DNA from: a virus
Taxonomy: Duplodnaviria; Heunggongvirae; Uroviricota; Caudoviricetes
DNA: 64,000 nucleotides
Reading direction: 5' to 3' (one strand)
Virus record (IMG/VR): IMGVR_UViG_3300031576_000029
Span: 1-64,000 of that record
Shown: positions 2,996-64,000 of the stretch, piece by piece
Layout: each line of letters opens with the position of its first letter
Numbering within the stretch: the first letter of the stretch is position 1
Translations under genes and position numbers: made by a program
Notes under the pieces: model-generated
What the model saw: only the letters and a program-made list of their open reading frames with translations
Databases searched by the model: none
What the model was told of the DNA's origin: nothing

Positions 2996-3020
2996 CAAAG
3001 GATTTGGAATTTGATAAACT
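2992..3020 (+). promoter_or_regulatory. Sigma70-like promoter for the Ro60 gene: TTGACA, 17-nt spacer, TGnTAAACT
   Basis: Consensus -35 box, an extended TG, and a 4/6 match at -10, about 125 nt upstream of the Ro60 ATG. Confidence 0.45.
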
Positions 3021-3078
3021 AAGAGTAGTACAATAGCCGAATGGCTGTACTCTTTCATTGTAACACTGAGGGTCGAAG

Positions 3079-3110
3079 ATAATCGATTATTGGATTATAT
3101 CATCGATTAT
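3079..3110 (+). promoter_or_regulatory. Pair of ATCGAT-centred palindromes (ATAATCGATTAT, ATCATCGATTAT) in the Ro60 5' leader; candidate operator
   Basis: One perfect 12-bp palindrome and a near-copy 20 bp downstream. Confidence 0.35.
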
Positions 3111-3146
3111 CAATTCCTTATCCTCCTTCTTTCTTAGGAGAACAGT

Positions 3147-4736
3147 ATGAATTATTCAAATTTCTTATCCAAGAAGACAACTCCTCAAACACAACCTATT
3201 TTTGGTCGCAATGATCAAAAACTTAATAATGCCGGAGGATATGTATTTGATGTTCCAGATCAAGCATTACTCGAAAGATTTCTTACGATTGGTACAGAAA
3301 ATGGTACTTATTATGTAAGTGAACAAAAGCTCACTGTTGATAATGCTAAACGCATGATTGAGATTATTAAAAAAGATGGAAAGAATGTTGTTCAAACTCT
3401 CCTTAATTTTACAGAAAACAACAGAGCACTTAAACAAGATCCATCTATTTTTGTGTTAGCTTTAGCTTGCACTTATGGAGATGCCGATACAAAGAAATTT
3501 GCTTATAATGCCATTCATAAAGTATGTAGAACATCTACTCATTTATTTACTTTCTGTCAAAATGTTCAAGATTTAAGAGGATGGAGTAGAGGATTAAGAA
3601 CCGGAGTATCTCAGTTTTATTTATCTAAAAGTCCAAAAGATGTTGCTTATCAACTTGTTAAATATCGTCAACGAAATGGATGGACACATAGAGATGTTCT
3701 AAGACTAGCTCATACTAATCCTAGACTATCTACTGGATATTTGTATTTATTTCACTATGCAGTAAATGGTTCTTTAAAAATGAGCATGGATGTTCCTGAT
3801 ATTATTCATGCATTTGAAAATGCTCAAGATACCGATGATGTTAAAGAATTGGTAGATTTAATTAAAAGATACAATTTAACTTGGGAAATGGTTCCAACAG
3901 AAAAATTAAATAATAAAGAAGTTTTAGCTGCTCTTCTTGAAAATATGCCTATGACAGCTCTACTCAGAAATTTAAACAGATTTGCTATTTCAGGTCTGAC
4001 AAATGGACGTAGAGAATATCATACAAATTTTATTGTTGAAAGACTTAATGATTTGAATCTTCTTAAGAAATCTCATGTACATCCAATTACTCTTTTAAAT
4101 ACAATGAAAATCTATAATTCAGGTCATGGAATGAAGGGTAAACAAACTTGGACTCCCAATCAAGAAATTGTTGATGCTCTTAATAGTTCATTTGAACTAT
4201 CTTTTCAAGCTGTCGAACCTACAAATAAGTCTATTCTTATTGCGGCAGATGTCAGTGGTAGCATGTCTCATTCTAATGTTGGTGGAATGGCTTTAAGTCC
4301 TATCGAAATAGCAGCTGCTTTGCTTCTAACTACTTATAAAACTGAACCAAATGCAGAAGCTGTTTTGTTTGATACTGTTGTGTACCCAACAAAATTTGGC
4401 ACAAGAACAAGTTATGATGCAGTTCTCCAAACTGTTAAAAATATTTGTGGAGGAGGAACTGATTGTTCACTTCCATTCAAACATGCATTGAGCACTAGAA
4501 CTAAATATGATGCTATTATGACTTTAACAGATAGTGAAACATGGGCTGGAAGTCAACATCCTATTCAAGCATATGCAACGTACAAACAAACTGTTAATGT
4601 AAATACTAAAGGAATTGTTGTTGGAATGGTAGCTAATGAATGTACATTATTTCCTGCTGAAGATTTAGATGCTCTCAATATTGCTGGTATGGATAGTTCA
4701 ATACCCGAATTAATTCGTAATTTTATTAAGGATTGA
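3147..4736 (+). CDS. rsr: Ro60 (Rsr) orthologue: TROVE domain plus C-terminal vWA domain
   Basis: The N-terminal GGYVFDVPDQALLERFLTIGTENGTYYVSEQKL matches the TROVE signature. The C-terminal half has a vWA MIDAS motif, IAADVSGSMS. Length is 529 aa. Confidence 0.8.
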   Translation: MNYSNFLSKKTTPQTQPIFGRNDQKLNNAGGYVFDVPDQALLERFLTIGTENGTYYVSEQKLTVDNAKRMIEIIKKDGKNVVQTLLNFTENNRALKQDPSIFVLALACTYGDADTKKFAYNAIHKVCRTSTHLFTFCQNVQDLRGWSRGLRTGVSQFYLSKSPKDVAYQLVKYRQRNGWTHRDVLRLAHTNPRLSTGYLYLFHYAVNGSLKMSMDVPDIIHAFENAQDTDDVKELVDLIKRYNLTWEMVPTEKLNNKEVLAALLENMPMTALLRNLNRFAISGLTNGRREYHTNFIVERLNDLNLLKKSHVHPITLLNTMKIYNSGHGMKGKQTWTPNQEIVDALNSSFELSFQAVEPTNKSILIAADVSGSMSHSNVGGMALSPIEIAAALLLTTYKTEPNAEAVLFDTVVYPTKFGTRTSYDAVLQTVKNICGGGTDCSLPFKHALSTRTKYDAIMTLTDSETWAGSQHPIQAYATYKQTVNVNTKGIVVGMVANECTLFPAEDLDALNIAGMDSSIPELIRNFIKD

Positions 4737-4799
4737 ACGAGTCGAATGAGAATCGGTTATTTTCAAGCTATATCCGATTTTCGATAACTTATTCGTTCA
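4734..4799 (+). ncRNA. Candidate Y-RNA-like module 1, directly 3' of rsr
   Basis: Terminal 7-bp stem TGAACGA/TCGTTCA encloses an internal aatcgg/ccgatt hairpin. It shares a GAGTCGAATGA box with module 2. Confidence 0.3.
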
Positions 4800-4845
4800 T
4801 TAATTTGGAATGTAGTGAATCATAGATATTTTTATCAATTTATTT

Positions 4846-4937
4846 TTAGCGAGTCGAATGAATTGATTAGAGTTCGAATCTCATCTTGAAGCGATAGCTT
4901 CTTGTAGGAACCCGATTTCTAAATCTTCATTCGCTAA
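4846..4937 (+). ncRNA. Candidate Y-RNA-like module 2 with a tRNA-like T-arm mimic
   Basis: The terminal stem TTAGCGA..GAATGAA / TTCATTCGCTAA carries a 5-nt bulge. Inside it are GAG-TTCGAAT-CTC (a T-loop consensus) and the GAAGC-gata-GCTTC hairpin. A U-rich tract follows. Confidence 0.35.
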
Positions 4938-4976
4938 TAACAAATTTTATTTTCTATTTGCGAATAGGAGGATTTT

Positions 4977-6607: not shown

Positions 6608-6790
6608 TAAAAGAATTCAGGAACCTGATGCATTGCTATGGTTTAAAGTAGGCTCACAAGGAGCTGATAGAGTAATTTATTATTCGTGCCTGATTTGCTG
6701 TCACCTGCATTGTGGTGAGATTGGCTAAGCAACTATTCCAGGGCCAGCATGCTGAGTGCCTAGAAAGCTGGTAAAATTTTGGAGTTGTTA
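6608..6790 (+). other. ORF-free, GC-enriched intergenic island; candidate small structured RNA
   Basis: No ORF on either strand. Local G+C is well above the flanks. Contains TCACC/GGTGA and CCAGC/GCTGG hairpins and an AGCATGCT palindrome. Confidence 0.2.
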
Positions 6791-14326: not shown

Positions 14327-14345
14327 TAACACACTGTAAGTCGTA

Positions 14346-14415
14346 AAAGGGACTGAGTACCCACAACAGTGGGCATCATCTTTCCTCCTAACTCGGTCCC
14401 TTTGATTTCTGTTTT
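14346..14415 (+). terminator. Long bulged hairpin followed by a U-tract: intrinsic terminator or RNase III-type processing site
   Basis: 13-bp stem AAAGGGACTGAGT / ACTCGGTCCCTTT with one G-U pair. It has a nested CCCAC-aaca-GTGGG hairpin, then TTTGATTTCTGTTTT. Confidence 0.5.
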
Positions 14416-14418
14416 AAG

Positions 14419-19456: not shown

Positions 19457-19813
19457 ATGAATAGAATTATACAATTAGCTAAAAAACTCAGTTATAAATC
19501 AGATCATAGAGCACACAAGCTTGGTTGTGTAATTGTTAACAAAAATAAAATTATATCATTGGGATGGAATAGAATTAAAACACATCCCAAATCTCCTCAT
19601 AAATTTAAATCAATTCATGCCGAATTTCATGCTATCTTAGGTGTAGATGAACGAGAATTAAATGGAGCGACTGTTTATATTTATAGAGAACAAAAGAATG
19701 GTAAACTAGGTAAAGCTCGTCCTTGTTCTAGTTGTTGGAAAATGTTAGAAAATGTAGGAATTTCTGAAATAATATATTCAGATTATGATGGAATGAAAAG
19801 AGAAAGGATATGA
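19457..19813 (+). CDS. dCMP deaminase, zinc-dependent
   Basis: HAEFHAI and PCSSCWKML zinc motifs. Start moved to the ATG at 19457, just after the stop of the previous gene. Confidence 0.8.
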   Translation: MNRIIQLAKKLSYKSDHRAHKLGCVIVNKNKIISLGWNRIKTHPKSPHKFKSIHAEFHAILGVDERELNGATVYIYREQKNGKLGKARPCSSCWKMLENVGISEIIYSDYDGMKRERI

Positions 19814-20595
19814 GCATTCCTAAAGATATTACTTCTAAACATTTAACAATTGATGCCTGGGCGATATTAAGTGGTTACAGAGGAAGTATAGCTCACGGAA
19901 TGTATGTTCCAAAAGATAATCCAAATAGTATTGATGATAAAGATGTTATGACAGTATTTCTAGCTCCATTTGATTATTATACTACATTAGAAACTCATGG
20001 GTTATCTCGCGGAACGAAAGAAATTTTGGAAGGTGAATGGGATGTTGTTTGTTACGAATTTAAAAAATTTATTAGTTTATTAATTAAAGGTAATCCAAAT
20101 GTTATTTCTTTATTATGGCTAGAACCTAATTATTATATTAAGGTAACTGATATAGGACAATCTTTATTGATTAATAGAGATGTATTTTCATCAAAGCAAA
20201 TTTATCATTCCTTTTCTGGATATGCTTATTCGCAATTAAAAAAAATGACAAGCTTTTCTTTTGAAGGATATATGGGAGAAAAACGAAAAAAATTAGTAGA
20301 AAAATTTGGATATGACTGTAAAAATGCAGCTCATTTAATTCGTCTTTTACGTATGGCTATAGAATTTTTGCATGAAGGGGTATTTTTTGTTCAAAGACCA
20401 GATGCTACTCAATTGCTAGATATTAAATTAGGAATGTGGTCACTAGATCAAGTTAAAAAAGAAGCTGAAAATTTATTTAAAAGGACAGAAGAAGCTTATG
20501 ATAAATCTAAGCTACCTAATCAAGTTGATTTGAAAAAAATAAATGAATTAATGGTTGATTGTTTTAAAGAACATTTTTATGGAGAATTCATATGA
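19810..20595 (+). CDS. Pol-beta-superfamily nucleotidyltransferase
   Basis: GS...(15 aa)...DDKDV pattern near the N-terminus, 261 aa. Immediately upstream of the RNA ligase. Confidence 0.45.
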   Translation: MSIPKDITSKHLTIDAWAILSGYRGSIAHGMYVPKDNPNSIDDKDVMTVFLAPFDYYTTLETHGLSRGTKEILEGEWDVVCYEFKKFISLLIKGNPNVISLLWLEPNYYIKVTDIGQSLLINRDVFSSKQIYHSFSGYAYSQLKKMTSFSFEGYMGEKRKKLVEKFGYDCKNAAHLIRLLRMAIEFLHEGVFFVQRPDATQLLDIKLGMWSLDQVKKEAENLFKRTEEAYDKSKLPNQVDLKKINELMVDCFKEHFYGEFI

Positions 20596-21683
20596 GCGAC
20601 TTTCGGGTAGAAATTACTGATATCAAAGCAGTAAGACATCATCCCAATGCTGATAGATTAGATATTGTAAATATATTTGGTTGGGAAGTTGTAACATCTA
20701 AAGATACTTATAAAGTTGGTGATAAAGTATGTTATTTTCCTGTTGATTGTATTATAAGTGAAGATTTGGAAAAAATATTGTTTCCTCCTGATTCTAAAAT
20801 TAAATTAACTAATAGACGTATTAAAAGTATAAAATTGCGCGGACAAATAAGTCAAGGAATGATTGCTAATCCTAAACTTATAGGAGTGGATCATTTTAAT
20901 ATCGATAAAAATGTAGCTGAGTATTTAAAATGTATTAAATATGAACCACCAGAAATATCTAAACCAAGAGGAATGCAGGTTAGATCCAAAAAACAAGTCA
21001 ATCCTAATTTTCGTAAATATACTGATATTCAAAATTATAAATATTATAATGAAGTATTTCAACAAGGGGAACTTGTTGTTATTACTGAAAAATGTCACGG
21101 CACCTCGTGGCGTGGAGGTTGGGTGAAAAACGATGCTAATACTTTGTGGAAGAAAATAAGAAAATTATTTGGTCGGCTTCCTGAATGGGAATTTGTTTGG
21201 GGAAGTCATAATGTTCAAATTCAAAATAAATTATTTCATAAGGGCTTTTATGATGTAGATGTATATTCGAAAATGGTTAAACAATATGATTTAAAAAATC
21301 TTATTCCAAAAGGTTATGTTCTTTATGGAGAAATAGTTGGTTATAATATTCAAAAGAATTTCCATTATGATTGTGTTCCAGGGGAACATAAACTCTTTTT
21401 ATTTGATGTAAAATTTAATGACAAATGGTTAGATTATGAAGATTTTAAAATTACAGTAGATGCTTTAAAATTATCTAGAGTTCCTGAATTATTTACTGGT
21501 CCATATGATCCGGCTATTGTTGATAAACTTAGAAGCGGAACTAGTATATTAGATGAAAATACCATTAAAGAAGGTATTGTAATTAAAACAATTAAAGAAA
21601 CAGAATGTTCACTTGGAAGAAAAATATTAAAATTTATAAATGATGAATATTATTTATTAAAAGACGGAACGGATTATCATTAG
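20592..21683 (+). CDS. Rnl2-family RNA ligase fused to an N-terminal Myf/EMAP-type tRNA-binding domain
   Basis: N-terminal HPNADRLDIVNI matches the tRNA-binding-domain signature. Ligase motif I EKCHGTS (KxHG as in Rnl2), motif IV LFLFDV, motif V KEGIVIK. Confidence 0.6.
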   Translation: MSDFRVEITDIKAVRHHPNADRLDIVNIFGWEVVTSKDTYKVGDKVCYFPVDCIISEDLEKILFPPDSKIKLTNRRIKSIKLRGQISQGMIANPKLIGVDHFNIDKNVAEYLKCIKYEPPEISKPRGMQVRSKKQVNPNFRKYTDIQNYKYYNEVFQQGELVVITEKCHGTSWRGGWVKNDANTLWKKIRKLFGRLPEWEFVWGSHNVQIQNKLFHKGFYDVDVYSKMVKQYDLKNLIPKGYVLYGEIVGYNIQKNFHYDCVPGEHKLFLFDVKFNDKWLDYEDFKITVDALKLSRVPELFTGPYDPAIVDKLRSGTSILDENTIKEGIVIKTIKETECSLGRKILKFINDEYYLLKDGTDYH

Positions 21684-23120: not shown

Positions 23121-23167
23121 ATATATTAACTTTTAATAAAATATGATATAGTGTAACTGGAGACAAA

Positions 23168-23887
23168 ATGAAACCGAAAATTTTATTATATGATATAGAG
23201 ACAGCTCCTAATCTGGCCTACGTGTGGGGTAAATATGAACAAGATGTTATTGCTTATAAACAAGAATGGAACATGCTTTCATTTGCCTATAAATGGCTTG
23301 GTGAATCAGAAATAAAATGTGTTACTTTACAGGATTTTTCAGATAAAACCGATAAACATTTAGTAACAAAACTTCATAAACTTTTTAATGAAGCTGATGT
23401 AATTGTTGCACATAACGGTGATGAATTTGATCAAAAGAAAGCTAAGGCTCGATTTATTTATCATGGACTAAAGCCTACTAGAATTGTGCCCAGTATTGAT
23501 ACAAAGAAAGTCGCAAAAAAATATTTTAACTTCAATAGTAATAGTCTAAATGATCTTGGAGAACACCTTGGCCTAGGAACCAAAGTAAAACATTCTGGTT
23601 TTGATTTATGGCTTGGGTGTATGAACGGAGATCAGAAAAGTTGGAAGTTAATGGCGCGTTATAATAAGCAAGATGTTGTTCTTCTAGAAAAGATTTACAA
23701 TAAATTTCTTCCTTGGATGTATACTCATCCTAATATGTCATTGATTCGAAAACAAATTAAAGGATGTCCTAAATGTGGTTCACAGAATACTAAAAAAGAT
23801 GGAGTTAGAGCTAACTCACAAACATTACAACAACAACATCAATGTAAAGAGTGTGGAGGATATTTTCTTACTAGGTTATCAAAATGA
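23168..23887 (+). CDS. DEDD-type 3'-5' exonuclease with C-terminal zinc ribbon
   Basis: ILLYDIETAPN (Exo I), HNGDEFD (Exo II-like), and CPKCG...CKECGG. Confidence 0.5.
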   Translation: MKPKILLYDIETAPNLAYVWGKYEQDVIAYKQEWNMLSFAYKWLGESEIKCVTLQDFSDKTDKHLVTKLHKLFNEADVIVAHNGDEFDQKKAKARFIYHGLKPTRIVPSIDTKKVAKKYFNFNSNSLNDLGEHLGLGTKVKHSGFDLWLGCMNGDQKSWKLMARYNKQDVVLLEKIYNKFLPWMYTHPNMSLIRKQIKGCPKCGSQNTKKDGVRANSQTLQQQHQCKECGGYFLTRLSK

Positions 23888-24081
23888 TTAGTAAAGAACA
23901 TCAAATAGTAATAATAGCGTATTTAGAAGCAAAACTTGGTCTTGAAGAAGAATGGTATATTACACCACAAGATGTATTCTTTAATAGAACACCAAATGAA
24001 ATTGTTATGGTAGGTGAGGGAGATCAAGTAATAATGTTTTTAGAAGTAAGACTAGGATTAAGACCAGGAATTGCTTTTTGA
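23884..24081 (+). CDS. Hypothetical protein
   Basis: 65-aa ORF. Confidence 0.35.
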   Translation: MISKEHQIVIIAYLEAKLGLEEEWYITPQDVFFNRTPNEIVMVGEGDQVIMFLEVRLGLRPGIAF

Positions 24082-24238
24082 CATTTCTAATAAATATGCT
24101 AGTTGTTTGTGCTCTTTATTTTGATGGGCCAATTATTAAAGGCAAAATTGTTGCGCAAAATAAAGAATTCTTATTTGTTAAAACAGGTGCGGGAGACATT
24201 TATATGGTAAGTCCAATGCTTTGTGGTATATTGAAATA

Positions 24239-24450
24239 AACTGAGGCGGTGTAGGGCTGTGGTTGACAAGCCTATGTCAAGTAATTCCGAAGTCTGCGAA
24301 GGGACGGTGAGCCATTAGGACACACAGTAGGATGTTTCGTCTGGCCCAGGAAGCGATTCGCTACGAAAAAGTAAGTACTGCGAACATTAGATCTATATTC
24401 GTAGCTACAGATCTTAAAAAAGCCAGATGCCGGGGTCGCGTCCGGCCCTC
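24239..24450 (+). other. About 210-nt GC-rich, ORF-free island; candidate structured ncRNA containing the palindromic box TTGACAAGCCTATGTCAA
   Basis: It sits in the largest intergenic gap of the window. G+C is far above the genome background. The 5' end TGAGGCGG can pair with the 3' end CCGGCCCTCA. Internal hairpins include GCCGG-ggtcgcgt-CCGGC and GCTACG..CGTAGC. Confidence 0.3.
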
Positions 24451-24464
24451 AGTTAATTAAATAT

Positions 24465-24492
24465 ATTGACAAATGTTGTAATTAATGTATAA
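24465..24492 (+). promoter_or_regulatory. Near-consensus sigma70 promoter: TTGACA, 16-nt spacer, TATAAT
   Basis: Perfect -35 and -10 hexamers. An AAGGAG ribosome-binding site and an ATG at 24513 follow. Confidence 0.6.
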
Positions 24493-24512
24493 TAAAACAA
24501 TAAGGAGATCAA

Positions 24513-24713
24513 ATGAAACTATATGAATATGTTGTATTCTTCAATCCGAAAAATACTGATAAGAAAAAGCATGAAGAAGCTAAAATTCTAGTTGGTCCTA
24601 AAACAGTACTAACTAATGATGAAAAGACTGCTATGTTAATAGCTGGTAGAGAAATTCCTGAGAGTTTCTTAAATAGGCTAGATCAAGTAGAGGTAGCTGT
24701 ACGTTCTTTTTAA
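24513..24713 (+). CDS. Hypothetical protein
   Basis: 66-aa ORF with a strong promoter and ribosome-binding site. Confidence 0.5.
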   Translation: MKLYEYVVFFNPKNTDKKKHEEAKILVGPKTVLTNDEKTAMLIAGREIPESFLNRLDQVEVAVRSF

Positions 24714-24878
24714 GAGGGAGAAAAGTCGAGGAACAGCCTTCTTCTCCATCGTATCAATTTAGAAATGATTTGTTCCAACCAACATATACAATATCAACAA
24801 GTGCTACAGAATATTCACTACCAACAACTGTATATGCTTCCGCTAATAGTTTAAATCTTAACCAAAAGGAGCTAATCA

Positions 24879-25130
24879 ATGTCAAATGAACAAGTAAAAA
24901 AAGATAATTTTAAATTTGTTGTAGGAGATAATTTTTTGAATCCTCTCATGGATTATCTTGTGAAAAGACCTTATTCTGAAGTATATCAACTTATGGATTA
25001 CATCAGAAGTCTACAACCAGTTAACAAAACACCAGTAAAAGAGAATACTGCAGAATCTAATAATGGTTCTGCAGAAGAAAAAACTCCTGTGACTGTAACC
25101 GAAGAAGAAACACCTATTGTTAATGCGTAA
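24879..25130 (+). CDS. Hypothetical protein
   Basis: 83-aa ORF with an AGGAG ribosome-binding site. Confidence 0.45.
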   Translation: MSNEQVKKDNFKFVVGDNFLNPLMDYLVKRPYSEVYQLMDYIRSLQPVNKTPVKENTAESNNGSAEEKTPVTVTEEETPIVNA

Positions 25131-25772: not shown

Positions 25773-26088
25773 AAAATATAATAGAGAAATTGATGAGAAG
25801 TATAGATTAGAAAATCTTGTTAGAGAACAAAAATCTATTATAAGACAATTAAATAAGAAACTTAGAAGAATTTCTAGAGGTTATAGAAGTTATTTAGATA
25901 AAGATATATTTGAAGAAGTAGAGTCAATAACTACTTCTAAAGAAATAGAAAAAGTTTGTTTTGAATGTGAAAAGGGAATTTTGGAATTAAAAATTCTCCT
26001 CAATAGAAGATGGCGTGAATGTAATATATGTTCCTATAGAACTAAAGTTAAAATCCAACAATCTGATGGATCATGGAAAAAAATGTAA
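25765..26088 (+). CDS. Hypothetical protein with CxxC pairs
   Basis: 107-aa ORF with CFECEKG...CNICSY. Confidence 0.4.
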   Translation: MSKKYNREIDEKYRLENLVREQKSIIRQLNKKLRRISRGYRSYLDKDIFEEVESITTSKEIEKVCFECEKGILELKILLNRRWRECNICSYRTKVKIQQSDGSWKKM

Positions 26089-26480
26089 AGAAATTTAAGT
26101 TACCTAAGTTAGAATCATGGCTTCGTACTAAATTACGTAGAATTTCAATTCAATGGCCTGCTAAAAATGAAGCTCTAAAACGTGCTCGTGCAGAACGAGG
26201 TAAATATCAATGTGCCGAATGTAATAAATTATTTCCTCATAAAAAAGTTCACGTGGATCATCTAAAATCTGTTATTAATATTAAAACCGGTTTTACTGAT
26301 TGGAATGAATTTATTTCTAGATTATTTGTAGATATCGATGGCCTGCAAATTTTATGTTTAAGATGTCATGACAACAAAACTTTTCTAGAAGATGGAATGA
26401 GAATGTATTATAAAAACAAGAAGAAAAAGAGTAAACATGAAAGGCTTTCGCCAATACCTACAGTCCCTCTTAAAATCTGA
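26073..26480 (+). CDS. HNH endonuclease
   Basis: CAECN...HVDH...N...CLRCHDNK. Confidence 0.65.
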   Translation: MEKNVKKFKLPKLESWLRTKLRRISIQWPAKNEALKRARAERGKYQCAECNKLFPHKKVHVDHLKSVINIKTGFTDWNEFISRLFVDIDGLQILCLRCHDNKTFLEDGMRMYYKNKKKKSKHERLSPIPTVPLKI

Positions 26481-57879: not shown

Positions 57880-58736
57880 TTATTTTGTTCCTAAACTAGT
57901 TGTTATTATTGGGCCTTTGATGGCTGTTTCATATCCTAATTGAATTCCATTAGCTATTTTTTCAGAATCAAAATCTAATGTATCATGCATAATATATGAT
58001 GGAGCATATACAGCTAATTCTATGAATTTTTTATCTTTTTCTTTGTTACATTCCAAACAAGTTTGAATATCATTAATGAATATTTCATGAGTTAAAATAT
58101 CAATCGTGCGTAATGCATTAGATATCCAATTACCAACTTTTCTTTCAGATTGCTCATATTCTAAAGGATTACATAAAATCACTATCATTTTATCAGTTCC
58201 ATCTAAAATAGCCTGTTTTAAAGGAGTTTGTTCTCTTACACCACCATCTACCCATTCATCATCGATAGGAGCCATAATACCAGGAATAGTAGCAGAAGCC
58301 TCGACAGAACTAATGAAGTCAATTTCACTATCATGCCCATATTTAATTTTCCCCGTAATAAGACTAACTTTACAAACATATATATCACATGTAGGAGATC
58401 CTACTATATTTTTTTCTAATATTTTTCTCAAAGGTTTTGTATTATAAAGACCCTTAGATTTAAGAATAAGACTTAACCAATTAAATGAAATAATATTTGT
58501 TTTTCCTTTAATATTTCTCCATACTTTTTCTAAACCAGATATTCCTTGATAAGCATATCCAACAGCATTTAATGCTCCAACGGAAGTTCCATAAATAGCA
58601 TCAGGATGAAAGCCAAATTCAGACAGATATTTCATAACACCAAATTGAAAAGAACCTTTAGCACCTAACCGCCCCCGGAAAGAACCAGAGCGGTCTTATC
58701 CAGGGGCAACTCCTTTAGTCTTTTTTTATTTTCCAT
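57880..58736 (-). pseudogene. Patatin-like phospholipase split by a 1-nt frameshift at the C5/G5 run near 58672
   Basis: The downstream frame carries GTSVGALNA (GxSxG) and WVDGGV (the Asp dyad). The true N-terminus MENKKRLKELPLDKTALVLSGGG (oxyanion GGG) sits in another frame, starts at 58736, and stops after GGG. Confidence 0.6.
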
Positions 58737-59392
58737 ATAAAACCTCTGCACTTATTAGTATTTGTAAAACAAATACAATTTCTTATAGATGTATAGGTAA
58801 CACCAACGGATTTAGCTGCTTCTTTATAACTTGGATAATCTTTAATAAATTTTTCATCTAAAGTGTATTTAGATATAGCAACTCGATTAAACGGAATTTG
58901 ACCACATTTAAATTCTGTTTTAGGACTTAATCTTTGATTATTTTTAATTTCAGTTGCCGAACTTCTATGTTCACCTTTAACAAAAGAACCTTTATTTCTT
59001 TTTGAAACACCTTTTAATCCCTTATTCCAAGGGATAGTTCCTTTTGGAACTCCTTCTCCTCCAGGAGTTAGATTTAATAAAGTTATTTTATTATTATAAA
59101 ATTTTATTAAAGATTTCTCAACAAATTCCCAATTATTTTTTGAAGTTACTTCTAATATTTTAATATTAGGTTTTAATCCTTTATCTAAAAGACTTTTTAA
59201 CCATGCTCTTTTATGTGTTTTAGTATTATTTTTAACTTGACATAAATGTTGAGTAAGTCTTTTTAATGGGTTCATACTCTTTCCAATATAACGAATCTCA
59301 TTAGATATAGGATCAATCAATGCATAAATAAAAATTGGATGAGTTTCCATTTTTATAGTATCTTCACCTGATAATATTAAAGCTATTTTCAT
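58715..59392 (-). CDS. GIY-YIG homing endonuclease
   Basis: IYALIDPISNEIRYIGKS. Confidence 0.6.
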   Translation of the reverse strand: MKIALILSGEDTIKMETHPIFIYALIDPISNEIRYIGKSMNPLKRLTQHLCQVKNNTKTHKRAWLKSLLDKGLKPNIKILEVTSKNNWEFVEKSLIKFYNNKITLLNLTPGGEGVPKGTIPWNKGLKGVSKRNKGSFVKGEHRSSATEIKNNQRLSPKTEFKCGQIPFNRVAISKYTLDEKFIKDYPSYKEAAKSVGVTYTSIRNCICFTNTNKCRGFIWKIKKD

Positions 59393-62224: not shown

Positions 62225-62235
62225 ATAGTTGTTAA
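62225..62235 (-). promoter_or_regulatory. Late motif copy 6
   Basis: Lies between the intein-containing gene and 61703..62212. Extended match TTAACAACTATGTA. Confidence 0.35.
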
Positions 62236-64000
62236 GTTGGACCTAATTGTTGAGCTAATACGGGCAAATTCTCGAAAGGTTCCGGTGGAGTAGGAACTTG
62301 TGGAACCGCAACATTTTGAACAGCTTCTCCACCAGTCATTTCTTCTCCAGGAGGTATTAAACCAGCTTCAGCTTCCATTAATCCCTCCATAGGACTGCCT
62401 TCTAAAGCGCCTTGAGAAGGTTGTCCTTGTGGAGGCTGTTGAATGGGTTGTTGACCAATTATTTGCAATAAAGAAGGATCTGTATTCTTAAGTAGGTCTA
62501 TGTGTTCTTGAATATGTGCTAAAGTATTTTCTACCAAAGTTGTATCTTTTCTTAGATCAGGATCAGCAAGTACAGTTTTGTGTTCATTAATATGTAAAGT
62601 GTGATTATCTAATGCAATTGCTTGAACTTGTTCACCTTCTAATAGTCTTTCATTTTCTGACTTAATTAGAAGCAATTCACTCATTTCGCCTTCAAATGTC
62701 ATATCAAGTCTACCTGTATTAATAACCTGAAAATATTGTTGAGGAGATTTTAATAATTTCATTTGTAATAATTGTTCAGCCATTTGAACCCTACCTGCAA
62801 CTGTATTATGTGTTACGGTAAAATCGCCTAAAAGAAAATGAGGTTCTTCTTGCAAGGTGAAACCGTAATATGTGCCAAAACCTTTACATTCAACATTAAT
62901 TCCATAATTCAATGGATTTCTTGCCTTAATTTTTTCATGACATTGTTTTCTTGGTATTTTTACGGGAATGTTTGATGTATTACCACCAATAGATATTTTA
63001 AAACAATCAGAATCTAAATCACCAACCAACTTACTTGAGTTAGATTTAAATTTTTTAACCGTCACACGAAATCCTAAAGACTTAGTTAAATAAACAACAT
63101 CTTTTACTAATCTTTCATTTTTTTGTGTAAATATAAATGTTTCGTCAATTCTATGTCCATCAGTATCAAGTAATCCTGCTAATAAATTTAATCTATCTTC
63201 ACGACTAGAAGTTAAATAGAAAAACGGAATGTGTTTATTATTAATTAACTCCATAGACCGTAATGCGTTTATAAATGGATTACGATCGGGAGCACCATAA
63301 GCCTCACCAGATGTAATATGATAATTTTTAGACTTATTAGGCTGACGATTATCTTCAATTCTAACTTTCATTCCAATATCATTAGCAAAATTAATCCAAA
63401 TATCTGACAATTCTTTATCCATGGTAGTTAAACATGTATTTTTACTAGTTCCATCACCGAGCCATGCGCCTAAAATATAGGGAGGAATTTCTAGAGATTT
63501 CTTCTCAAATTCTACCCCTGTTGTAAATCCCTGTAATAGTCTTCGATGTCTCATGGATAAATTGAGATAATCTTTAACAGTTATATCTATAATATCACCT
63601 TGTTTTATATCATATCGAAAATCATCTGAACAATATCGAAGTGTTAAAATATGACTTTCATTACATCCATATTTAATATTTCTGTGTGGATCTTTTGATG
63701 TAATTTCATACATCATTTCTTGTCCACTATTCACATTTTTAACAGTTCTTGGTCCCGAATCTGGTCCCATAACTAAATCATTAATTTTAATCTCTTGGAC
63801 CATTTTAATGGTTCCATCATACATTAAAACAGGTGTATCTTTAGCCAAACAACGTGATAATGGATTCCCGACATCTACAACTACACGATTTATTGCATTA
63901 ATATCCTCACCAACAAATTCTTTTAATAATGGTCTATTATTTCTTCCCACCAATGCTATAACTTTTGGAGTAGTAGCAAAATCCTTAAGTATTTGAATTA
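62232..64000 (-). CDS. Packaging or portal-like protein interrupted by an intein; N-terminus beyond the window edge
   Basis: The reading frame stays open to position 64000. Extein sequence lies on both sides of a Hint/LAGLIDADG element. Confidence 0.5.
   Translation of the reverse strand, partial: IQILKDFATTPKVIALVGRNNRPLLKEFVGEDINAINRVVVDVGNPLSRCLAKDTPVLMYDGTIKMVQEIKINDLVMGPDSGPRTVKNVNSGQEMMYEITSKDPHRNIKYGCNESHILTLRYCSDDFRYDIKQGDIIDITVKDYLNLSMRHRRLLQGFTTGVEFEKKSLEIPPYILGAWLGDGTSKNTCLTTMDKELSDIWINFANDIGMKVRIEDNRQPNKSKNYHITSGEAYGAPDRNPFINALRSMELINNKHIPFFYLTSSREDRLNLLAGLLDTDGHRIDETFIFTQKNERLVKDVVYLTKSLGFRVTVKKFKSNSSKLVGDLDSDCFKISIGGNTSNIPVKIPRKQCHEKIKARNPLNYGINVECKGFGTYYGFTLQEEPHFLLGDFTVTHNTVAGRVQMAEQLLQMKLLKSPQQYFQVINTGRLDMTFEGEMSELLLIKSENERLLEGEQVQAIALDNHTLHINEHKTVLADPDLRKDTTLVENTLAHIQEHIDLLKNTDPSLLQIIGQQPIQQPPQGQPSQGALEGSPMEGLMEAEAGLIPPGEEMTGGEAVQNVAVPQVPTPPEPFENLPVLAQQLGPT
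62805..63851 (-). mobile_element. Intein of 349 aa with a LAGLIDADG homing-endonuclease core
   Basis: N-terminal CLAKDTPV; LAGLIDADG boxes ILGAWLGDGTS and LLAGLLDTDG; C-terminal FTVTHN followed by Thr. Confidence 0.7.

What the first reader, a model, noticed from the sequence alone, without database searches (positions are those of the whole stretch)
24210..24512. Orphan GC-rich structured island with a palindromic TTGACA box next to a consensus promoter
The largest ORF-free gap in the window has a G+C content far above the roughly 30 percent background of the genome.

Its ends can pair (TGAGGCGG with CCGGCCCTCA), enclosing several internal hairpins. These include GCCGG-ggtcgcgt-CCGGC and GCTACG...CGTAGC, the latter with two AGATCT palindromes.

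The island contains the 18-bp palindrome TTGACA-AGCCTA-TGTCAA. It is followed by a textbook promoter, TTGACA-16-TATAAT, driving a 66-aa gene.

The composition suggests either a stable structured ncRNA or a horizontally acquired fragment, perhaps an attachment-site or host-derived remnant. The palindrome could be an operator for a phage regulator.
Basis: seen in the sequence. Interest (0 to 1): 0.55.

Follow-up and report, generated by a model that had tools for sequence, protein, structure and literature searches.

The report
Orphan GC-rich insert before phage promoter
A 216-base, 50% G+C non-coding block in a 32% G+C phage genome is real and sharply bounded, but it matches no known RNA family, has no relative anywhere I could search, and is missing from the closest related phage, so it is most likely a foreign insert and not a proven RNA gene.

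Summary
Window 24239-24454 is a 216-bp block at 50% G+C between flanks of 32% and 20%. It has no credible ORF and is bounded by an 8-bp inverted repeat (AACTGAGG/CCTCAGTT). It sits just upstream of the only perfect TTGACA-16-TATAAT promoter in the window.

- Rfam (4227 families, including a permissive scan) and ARAGORN find nothing.
- The + strand folds no better than shuffles (z -0.30). The - strand is modestly better (z -2.41) but has no promoter.
- The 18-bp palindrome is ordinary: 41 such 6-6-6 palindromes occur in the window.
- The closest relative (L092, same sample, 85% identical downstream gene) has the same promoter directly after a different upstream gene, with no island.
- A covariance model of the island finds nothing in 677 kb of related loci.
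- BLAST and k-mer scans of phage, plasmid, viral, metagenome and genome collections give only chance hits.
- An 8-bp direct repeat (TATATTGA) flanks the block.

Best reading (about 0.4): an accessory, horizontally acquired non-coding insert. A novel stand-alone RNA (about 0.3) is not excluded.

In passing: the phage encodes Ro60/Rsr with Y-RNA-like genes beside it.

The parts
24239..24454 (.). GC-rich non-coding core of the island: 216 bp, G+C 0.50, base counts A59 C46 G62 T49.
   Evidence: No Rfam family. No tRNA or tmRNA. No protein homolog for the longest stop-free frame.
24239..24246 (.). Left arm of the terminal inverted repeat, AACTGAGG. It extends to AATAAACTGAGG from 24235.
   Evidence: Empirical p of about 0.009 for an inverted repeat of at least 8 bp at the boundaries.
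24447..24454 (.). Right arm of the terminal inverted repeat, CCTCAGTT. It extends to CCTCAGTTAATT, ending at 24458.
24227..24234 (.). Left copy of the 8-bp direct repeat TATATTGA. It abuts the extended left inverted-repeat arm and lies inside the end of the 47-aa ORF.
   Evidence: Empirical p of about 0.02-0.03.
24462..24469 (.). Right copy of the direct repeat TATATTGA. It supplies the first four bases of the -35 box and lies 3 nt beyond the extended right inverted-repeat arm.
24263..24280 (.). 18-bp palindrome TTGACA-AGCCTA-TGTCAA.
   Evidence: Chance-level frequency, 41 such palindromes in the window.
24338..24429 (+). Predicted 8-bp helix CGTCTGGC/GCCAGATG (24338-45 with 24422-29). It encloses the AT-richer middle domain, which holds the mutually exclusive pairings GCTACGAA/TTCGTAGC (24360-67/24398-405) and AGATCTATA/TACAGATCT (24389-97/24406-14).
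   Evidence: Predicted only, with no covariation data.
24429..24446 (+). Hairpin GCCGG(G)-GTCGCG-(T)CCGGC, directly abutting the 3' strand of the terminal helix. This gives a 5+7 bp stack that looks like a tRNA minihelix, but the loop is not a T-loop. On the - strand the same region forms a hairpin followed by UUUUUU.
   Evidence: The loop comparison is by reading the sequence.
24466..24493 (+). Consensus sigma-70 promoter TTGACA-16-TATAAT for the 66-aa gene. It is conserved as TTGACA-17-TATAAT in relative L092.
24513..24713 (+). 66-aa gene downstream of the promoter. It has one homolog (85% identity) in the related phage contig L092.
24096..24239 (+). 47-aa ORFan whose stop codon lies in the AT-rich extension of the left inverted repeat. 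No homolog exists, so it is uncertain whether it is a real gene.

Best explanation
The island is an accessory, horizontally acquired piece of non-coding DNA. It was inserted as a discrete unit at the 3' edge of a swapped gene cassette (exonuclease, 65-aa gene, 47-aa ORF), immediately upstream of a conserved strong promoter.

Shown:
- It is a compositional outlier with sharp boundaries.
- An inverted repeat coincides with those boundaries, and an 8-bp direct repeat flanks it.
- The nearest relative has the promoter but not the island.
- Nothing related was detected elsewhere.

Inferred:
- It entered by transposition-like insertion or by illegitimate recombination at the TATATTGA sequence of the -35 region.
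- Today it is simply read through on the + strand as the 3' untranslated tail of the upstream genes.
- It has no dedicated role beyond whatever its G+C-rich hairpins do incidentally to transcript 3' stability.
For: - G+C is 0.50 against 0.32 and 0.20 in the flanks, and it is the top G+C peak of the window.
- The terminal inverted repeat sits exactly at the compositional boundaries, p about 0.009.
- The flanking 8-bp direct repeat has p about 0.02-0.03.
- Relative L092 is 66-80% identical in DNA across the replication module and 85% identical in the 66-aa protein. It carries TTGACA-17-TATAAT directly after a different upstream gene, with no island there or elsewhere in its 20 kb.
- The other genes of the cassette have ordinary AT-rich composition, so only the island is foreign-looking.
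- No own promoter or terminator was found on either strand by the scan.
- The + strand folding energy is indistinguishable from shuffles, z -0.30 with 69 of 200 shuffles as good.
- No Rfam, tRNA or tmRNA match.
- No homolog in 677 kb of related loci by covariance model or BLAST.
Against: - No donor and no second copy was found, so neither the source nor the insertion mechanism is shown.
- The direct repeat does not abut both inverted-repeat arms; it is offset by 3 nt on the right.
- The AT-rich stretch between the right arm and the repeat resembles L092's promoter-upstream sequence (19 of 24, by eye). This argues against a clean target-site duplication.
- Phage genomes rarely keep useless DNA, and mutation pressure in a 32% G+C genome should erode a neutral 50% G+C block. 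Sharp boundaries therefore mean either very recent arrival or selection, and selection would favour a functional RNA or DNA element.
- The - strand folds better than shuffles (z -2.41).
Confidence: 0.4

Rival explanations
1. The island is a stand-alone, accessory structured RNA gene of a new class. It would either be cut out of the + strand read-through transcript, for example by RNase P at the minihelix-like stack of terminal helix plus hairpin, or be made from the - strand. It might work with the phage's RNA toolkit (Ro60/Rsr, Y RNAs, RlaP, RNA ligase) or act as a decoy.
For: - In AT-rich genomes, G+C peaks with paired 5' and 3' ends typically mark stable RNA genes (general knowledge).
- The terminal helix lies exactly at the G+C boundaries.
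- A 5-bp hairpin abuts the 7-8 bp terminal helix, like the tRNA T-arm and acceptor stem.
- The - strand has z -2.41 and a better-defined ensemble.
- The phage encodes Rsr, Y-like RNAs, RlaP and an RNA ligase.
- One relative (L001) has a tmRNA right after the same exonuclease gene.
- CGAA occurs 4 times in 216 nt on the + strand.
Against: - No Rfam hit even at E up to 10, and ARAGORN is negative even when relaxed.
- The + strand has z -0.30 and a diffuse ensemble.
- The hairpin loop GGUCGCGU is not a T-loop, whereas the phage's own Y-b RNA has a textbook GAGUUCGAAUCUC.
- No promoter or terminator was detected.
- It is absent from the closest relative and from 88 related loci.
- Only 1 of 88 related loci has any tRNA or tmRNA near the exonuclease gene.
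- No homologs exist, so there is no covariation.
Confidence: 0.3
2. The island is a cis-acting element for the neighbouring transcription units. It could be a 3' stabiliser or insulator for the upstream operon, a regulator-binding region (operator) for the strong promoter, or a replication or packaging site.
For: It lies between the last gene of a cassette and the strongest promoter-like site in the window. It contains several stable hairpins and a TTGACA-containing palindrome. TTGACAA occurs both in the palindrome and in the -35 box.
Against: L092 has the same promoter and downstream gene with no island, so the promoter does not need it. The palindrome is at chance frequency. No + strand terminator was found. 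There are no iterons or repeats beyond 7-8-mers.
Confidence: 0.12
3. The island is the decayed remnant of a protein-coding gene, or of a mobile element's coding region, from an organism with higher G+C.
For: G+C of about 50% with positive G-C skew. One 58-codon stop-free stretch lies on the - strand.
Against: That stretch has no homolog among 1.84 billion representative proteins and no Pfam match. All six frames are interrupted, and a 58-codon open stretch is expected by chance at this composition.
Confidence: 0.07
4. The island is an extra, oversized Y-RNA-like partner of the phage Ro60 (Rsr), binding through its CGAA motifs.
For: Rsr is encoded at 3147-4736. The island has a 5'/3' terminal stem and four CGAA motifs, two of them as CGAAG. 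Ro60 recognition involves CGAA (PMC4201824, PMC12135203).
Against: - It has no full GNCGAAN0-1G motif, while the four motifs around rsr are exact.
- It lies 19.5 kb from rsr, whereas Y RNAs lie within 4 kb (PMC4201824).
- It has no canonical T-arm.
- At about 215 nt it is roughly twice the usual Y RNA size.
Confidence: 0.04

Closest known systems
Phage 'morons' and other accessory inserts with atypical base composition (Hendrix-type morons; from my own knowledge)
   Same: It is a discrete block between two genes. Its composition differs from the rest of the genome. It is present in one phage and absent at the same junction in a relative.
   Different: Classical morons carry a protein gene with its own promoter and terminator. 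This block has no credible ORF, promoter or terminator.
Miniature inverted-repeat transposable elements (MITEs)
   Same: It is small (216-227 bp) and non-coding, with terminal inverted repeats and a flanking 8-bp direct repeat.
   Different: It is a single copy. No other copy turned up in the window, in 677 kb of related loci, or in the k-mer scans. The inverted repeat is short, and the direct repeat does not abut both ends.
tRNA-like RNAs of phages: tRNA, tmRNA and YrlA-type Y RNA
   Same: It is G+C-rich relative to the genome. It has paired termini, and a hairpin stacks on the 3' strand of the terminal helix as a T-arm does. This phage and its relatives do carry such RNAs.
   Different: It has no cloverleaf, no T-loop consensus, no G3-U70 and no CCA. 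It lacks the GNCGAAN0-1G motif. There is no Rfam or ARAGORN hit.
REP-type G+C-rich extragenic palindromes that stabilise upstream mRNA
   Same: It is intergenic, lies 3' of an operon, and is rich in stable hairpins.
   Different: REP elements are 20-40 nt and highly repeated in a genome. This is a single 216-nt unit.

Membership tests
tRNA / tmRNA | Cloverleaf or tRNA-like domain detectable by ARAGORN or by Rfam RF00005, RF00023 and the other tmRNA models. | tested here: not met
   ARAGORN finds 0 genes in the window and none at relaxed thresholds or with introns allowed. Rfam finds none at gathering score or at E up to 10. As a positive control, Rfam finds the tmRNA in L001 at 77.7 bits.
tRNA / tmRNA | Canonical 7-nt T-loop (UUCRANY); for tmRNA also a G3-U70 pair and a 3' CCA context. 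| tested here: not met
   By reading: the loop is GGUCGCGU (8 nt), the terminal helix is A-U, C-G, U-A..., and UAAU follows it.
Any curated Rfam family (4227 models) | Score at or above the family's gathering threshold. | tested here: not met
   (whole window) gave 0 hits. One search (24150-24560, E up to 10) gave only a 14-bit REN-SRE noise hit outside the island.
Bacterial/phage Y RNA (YrlA-like; Chen et al. 2014, PMC4201824) | GNCGAAN0-1G motif near the 5' end. | tested here: not met
   there is no occurrence in 24239-24454 on either strand. Exact motifs sit at 3036, 3072, 4741 and 4853, next to rsr.
Bacterial/phage Y RNA (YrlA-like) | Encoded within about 4 kb of the Ro60 gene, on the same strand. 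| tested here: not met
   rsr is at 3147-4736. The island is on the same strand but 19.5 kb downstream.
Bacterial/phage Y RNA (YrlA-like) | Stem formed by the 5' and 3' ends. | tested here: met
   AACUGAGG/CCUCAGUU.
Bacterial/phage Y RNA (YrlA-like) | Binding to Ro60/Rsr. | not testable with these tools
   Needs a gel-shift or co-purification experiment.
MITE / non-autonomous transposable element | Terminal inverted repeats. | tested here: inconclusive
   8 bp perfect, 11 of 12 when extended, p about 0.009. This is short for a terminal inverted repeat.
MITE / non-autonomous transposable element | Target-site duplication directly abutting both ends. | tested here: inconclusive
   The 8-bp TATATTGA repeat abuts the extended left arm but lies 3 nt from the right arm, p about 0.02-0.03. 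The intervening sequence looks ancestral when compared with L092.
MITE / non-autonomous transposable element | Multiple copies in a genome or in related genomes. | tested here: not met
   No second copy in the window, in 7.8 kb more of the contig, or in 677 kb of related loci. Exact 20-24-mer scans of the viral, metagenome and genome collections gave only chance hits. These scans need exact words, so diverged copies could be missed.
Intrinsic terminator | G+C-rich hairpin followed directly by a U-run, on the strand that is transcribed. | tested here: not met
   The scan finds 0 sites in 23800-24900. On the - strand only, RNAfold pairs GCCGGA.CG...CG.UCUGGC followed by U6, but no - strand transcription unit is apparent.
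Sigma-70 promoter (the adjacent element) | TTGACA, 16-18 nt, TATAAT; conserved position in relatives. | tested here: met
   12/12 at 24466-24493 and unique in the window. L092 has TTGACA-17-TATAAT at the same place. Activity was not tested.
Phage attachment site (attP) | Integrase gene nearby, and a core identical to a host tRNA, tmRNA or other host locus. | tested here: not met
   No integrase among the 42 ORFs scanned; not every ORF was scanned. No host match with two k-mers in 185,579 species genomes.

The most novel reading that the evidence does not exclude
The island is a previously undescribed phage-borne structured RNA of about 215 nt. It would have a closed terminal helix with a minihelix-like hairpin stacked on it, and several CGAA motifs. 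It would be released from the read-through transcript and act with, or as a decoy for, the RNA surveillance and repair machinery that this phage carries (Ro60/Rsr with Y RNAs, RlaP, RNA ligase).
Probability: 0.1. Interest if true: 0.6.

Novelty: new member of a known kind. Interest (0 to 1): 0.27.

Why it matters
As it stands the island matters little. It is a single-copy, unconserved, compositionally foreign block whose function, if any, cannot be inferred.

It is a useful caution that a G+C peak plus hand-drawn hairpins in an AT-rich phage does not establish an RNA gene. Here the + strand folds no better than shuffled sequence, and the palindrome is at chance frequency.

If it did prove to be a discrete RNA, it would add a new RNA to a phage that already carries an unusually complete RNA-handling set (Ro60, Y RNAs, RlaP, RNA ligase). 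It would also be worth testing for Ro60 binding.

The comparison with L092 shows how a conserved promoter marks the edge of a swapped accessory cassette in this uncultivated phage group.

Tried and rejected
- Known RNA families: Rfam at gathering score and at E up to 10 found nothing.
- tRNA, tmRNA, intron-containing tRNA and permuted tmRNA with relaxed ARAGORN found nothing credible.
- tmRNA relic: this was prompted by the tmRNA next to the exonuclease gene in L001. There is no sequence similarity in either orientation and no Rfam tmRNA hit.
- rRNA fragment: I recalled similarity to 23S rRNA. Local alignment to the E. coli rrnH operon scores below the shuffle mean.
- Y RNA: the motif is absent.
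- Conservation by synteny:
  - 80 IMG/VR loci plus 10 assembly loci with the exonuclease gene show no BLAST or covariance-model hit.
  - The gap at the same place in L083 shows no similarity and no structure signal.
- Database homologs:
  - phages, blastn: only the AT-rich promoter matches;
  - plasmids: none;
  - E. coli genomes: none;
  - Viral contigs with 5 patterns (and a protein-based scan in 59): none;
  - Genome contigs with 2 patterns: one exact 20-mer inside a Pyrinomonadaceae coding region, with no extension;
  - Metagenome contigs: one 22-nt match in a 55% G+C contig, with no further similarity.
  - About one chance hit is expected per 20-mer at these database sizes.
- Coding remnant: six-frame translation, Pfam and a 1.84-billion-protein search found nothing.
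- Second copy elsewhere in the contig: none.
- Flanking small proteins in PHROGs and Pfam: no families.
- Pseudoknot between GCTACGAA/TTCGTAGC and AGATCTATA/TACAGATCT: rejected, because the connecting loops would be 0 nt. These are alternative pairings.

Full report
**What is there**

The window is 64 kb of a 78.7-kb uncultivated phage contig (ENA ERZ27247320 k141_1618901) with mean G+C of 0.319. Genes run on the + strand up to about 29.5 kb. They include a DnaB-type helicase, a family-B DNA polymerase, RlaP, an RNA ligase, an AAA ATPase and an RNase-H-fold exonuclease.

Between the 47-aa ORFan 24096-24239 and the 66-aa gene 24513-24713 lies a 273-nt gap. Its core, 24239-24454, has G+C of 0.50, against 0.32 and 0.20 in the adjoining 100 nt. 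This core contains the highest 120-nt G+C peak in the window (0.542). The gap is the largest ORF-free stretch when ORFs of at least 45 aa are counted, and the second largest at a 60-aa threshold. The sequence is identical in an independent Logan assembly of the same sample.

- End pairing. The ends pair as AACTGAGG/CCTCAGTT, or 11 of 12 when extended into the AT-rich flanks. An inverted repeat of at least 8 bp at such boundaries occurs in about 0.9% of random window pairs.
- Hairpins. GCCGG-GGTCGCGT-CCGGC, GCTACGAA/TTCGTAGC and the two AGATCT sites are all present. The pairings GCTACGAA/TTCGTAGC and AGATCTATA/TACAGATCT exclude each other.
- Palindrome. TTGACA-AGCCTA-TGTCAA is real but ordinary. 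The window holds 41 perfect 6-6-6 palindromes, and 195 with loops of 4-8 nt.
- Promoter. TTGACA-16-TATAAT at 24466-24493 is the only 12/12 match in 64 kb.
- Direct repeat. It brackets the island, and its right copy forms part of the -35 box. A repeat of this length in such flanks has an empirical p of about 0.02-0.03.

**Is it a known or a structured RNA?**

- Rfam finds nothing in the window at gathering thresholds. At E up to 10 over 24150-24560 it finds only a 14-bit noise hit outside the island.
- ARAGORN finds no tRNA or tmRNA, even with relaxed thresholds or with introns allowed.
- The + strand, the strand of all neighbouring genes, has MFE -62.5 kcal/mol against -61.0 ± 5.0 for dinucleotide shuffles. 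That gives z -0.30, with 69 of 200 shuffles as good, and the ensemble is diffuse.
- The - strand gives z -2.41, with 6 of 200 shuffles as good, and a better-defined fold. No - strand promoter was detected, and every gene for 5 kb on either side is on the + strand.
- No terminator-like site was found on either strand by the scan. RNAfold does draw a hairpin followed by U6 near the 5' end of the - strand.
- One feature looks like tRNA: a 5-bp hairpin directly abuts the 3' strand of the 7-8 bp terminal helix. Its 8-nt loop, GGUCGCGU, is not a T-loop. The helix also lacks G3-U70 and a CCA context.

**Is it conserved?**

I found no conservation by synteny.
- Eighty IMG/VR loci and ten assembly loci carrying the neighbouring exonuclease gene were checked; the best non-self relatives are 74%, 72% and 70% identical in protein. 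None shows a BLAST match to the island.
- The closest exonuclease relative, L083, has a 307-nt gap in a similar position. That gap shows no similarity to the island and no structure signal.

The decisive comparison is with L092. This is an 84-kb contig from the same sample and carries the only homolog of the 66-aa gene (85% protein identity).
- L092 is 65-80% identical in DNA to the window across the replication module.
- Between the AAA-ATPase/84-aa genes and the 66-aa gene it carries a different cassette: 102-aa, 155-aa and metallophosphatase genes. The window carries the exonuclease, the 65-aa gene, the 47-aa ORF and the island.
- In L092 the promoter TTGACA-17-TATAAT follows the upstream gene directly, and that gene's TGA stop lies inside the -35 box. 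There is no island there or anywhere in the 20 kb held.

A covariance model built from the island and its centroid structure finds only itself in 677 kb of related loci.

**Is there a donor or another copy?**

- blastn against 50,697 phage records matches only the AT-rich promoter part.
- Plasmids and E. coli genomes give nothing.
- Exact-word scans gave no true hit:
  - IMG/VR returned none.
  - The 185,579-species genome set returned one 20-mer inside a Pyrinomonadaceae coding region, with no extension.
  - The JGI metagenome set returned one 22-nt match in an unrelated 55% G+C contig.
  - About one chance hit per 20-mer is expected at these sizes.
- There is no second copy in the window or in 7.8 kb more of the contig.
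- The longest stop-free frame (58 codons, - strand) has no Pfam match and no homolog among 1.84 billion representative proteins.
- A recalled resemblance to 23S rRNA did not survive alignment to an E. coli rrn operon; the score was below the shuffle mean.

**Context found on the way**

- The phage encodes a Ro60/Rsr ortholog at 3147-4736 (TROVE 2.7e-44, Ro60 vWA 1.5e-45).
- Four of the ten + strand matches to the Rsr-binding motif GNCGAAN0-1G (Chen et al. 2014, PMC4201824) lie in the non-coding DNA flanking rsr, at 3036, 3072, 4741 and 4853.
- Two of them head small RNAs with closed terminal stems. The RNA at 4735-4802 has z -3.92, and the one at 4846-4938 has z -2.54. The second carries a textbook T-arm, GAGUUCGAAUCUC. 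These are Y-RNA-like genes, as expected next to rsr.
- The island itself has no such motif and lies 19.5 kb away, so it fails the Y RNA tests.
- A relative, L001, carries a bona fide tmRNA (77.7 bits) directly after its exonuclease gene, plus a tRNA cluster. Only 1 of 88 related loci has any tRNA or tmRNA there, so this is not a general RNA-gene hotspot.

**Interpretation**

The block is a discrete unit. It is compositionally foreign, ends in an inverted repeat, is flanked by a direct repeat, is absent from the nearest relative at the same junction, and is an orphan. The rest of its cassette has ordinary composition.

The simplest account is an accessory insert of foreign non-coding DNA, acquired by a transposition-like event or by illegitimate recombination at the -35 region. 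It would now be read through passively as a 3' tail of the upstream genes. I put this at about 0.4.

Against a clean transposition event, the direct repeat is offset by 3 nt on the right. The intervening AT-rich bases also look ancestral when compared with L092. No second copy exists, so I do not file it as a MITE.

The main rival is a new stand-alone structured RNA, at about 0.3. It is favoured by the general rule that G+C peaks with paired ends in AT-rich genomes are RNA genes. It is also favoured by the expectation that neutral G+C-rich DNA should decay or be deleted in a compact AT-rich phage. It is disfavoured by the null folding statistic on the coding strand, the lack of transcription signals, the non-canonical loop and the lack of any conservation.

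A cis-regulatory role (about 0.12) is weakened because L092 keeps the promoter and gene without the island. A coding remnant (about 0.07) and an oversized Y RNA (about 0.04) have little support.

**Verdict**

The island is real but ordinary in kind: an orphan accessory insert whose RNA nature is unproven. Interest is low to moderate. The Ro60/Y-RNA/RNA-repair set in the same phage is the more informative biology, and it is already a known kind (PMC4201824, PMC12135203).

Noticed in passing
window 3147-4736 (+), with flanking non-coding 2996-3146 and 4737-4976: A Ro60/Rsr ortholog (TROVE plus Ro60 vWA domains) with Y-RNA-like genes beside it. Exact GNCGAAN0-1G motifs sit at 3036, 3072, 4741 and 4853. 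The RNAs at about 4735-4802 (z -3.92) and about 4846-4938 (z -2.54) have closed terminal stems. The second carries a T-arm, GAGUUCGAAUCUC, followed by a stem-loop and a D-like arm, as in YrlA. Rfam does not detect them.
   Followed up: partly
window 19810-20595 and 20592-21683 (+): An RlaP-family nucleotidyltransferase next to an RNA ligase with an OB-fold domain. This is an RNA-repair pair in the same phage as Rsr.
   Followed up: no
L001 4824-5161 (-) and 7926-8701 (+): A relative (IMGVR_UViG_3300008065_000080, 54% identical exonuclease) has a bona fide tmRNA (Rfam 77.7 bits) right after the exonuclease gene, plus 5-7 tRNAs. ARAGORN missed this tmRNA.
   Followed up: partly
window 62232-64000 (-), continuing beyond the window (L095 6298-9426): The portal-like gene (1042 aa in the full contig) carries an intein with Hint and LAGLIDADG homing-endonuclease domains. 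The terminase large subunit lies just beyond the window.
   Followed up: no
window 26073-26480 (+), 58715-59392 (-), 57880-58635 (-): A free-standing HNH endonuclease, a GIY-YIG/NUMOD1 endonuclease and a patatin-like phospholipase. The genome is rich in selfish and accessory genes.
   Followed up: no
window 23121-24452 versus L092 8442-9898: A cassette swap between two related phages of the same sample. The window has exonuclease, 65-aa gene, 47-aa ORF and island; L092 has 102-aa, 155-aa and metallophosphatase genes. The swap is bounded on the right by the conserved TTGACA...TATAAT promoter.
   Followed up: partly
window 24714-24760 and L092 10202-10240: Just after the stop codon of the 66-aa gene, both phages have a hairpin built on GAGGGAGA...TCTCC with a different loop and partly different stem bases. 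It may be a conserved terminator or other structured element (read).
   Followed up: no
L092 9957-9990: In L092 the 5' leader between the promoter and the 66-aa gene holds a hairpin, GGAACTATCTGGAAATTCCGGATAGTTGG, that the window lacks.
   Followed up: no
window 6608-6789: A second non-coding stretch with raised G+C (0.42, peak 0.475). It folds worse than its shuffles (z +2.64) and has no similarity to the island.
   Followed up: partly
window 14327-14418: A long-stem hairpin, AAAGGGACTGAGT...ACTCGGTCCCTTT, followed by a T-rich run. It lies between a 99-aa gene and the helicase gene and is probably a strong intrinsic terminator.
   Followed up: no
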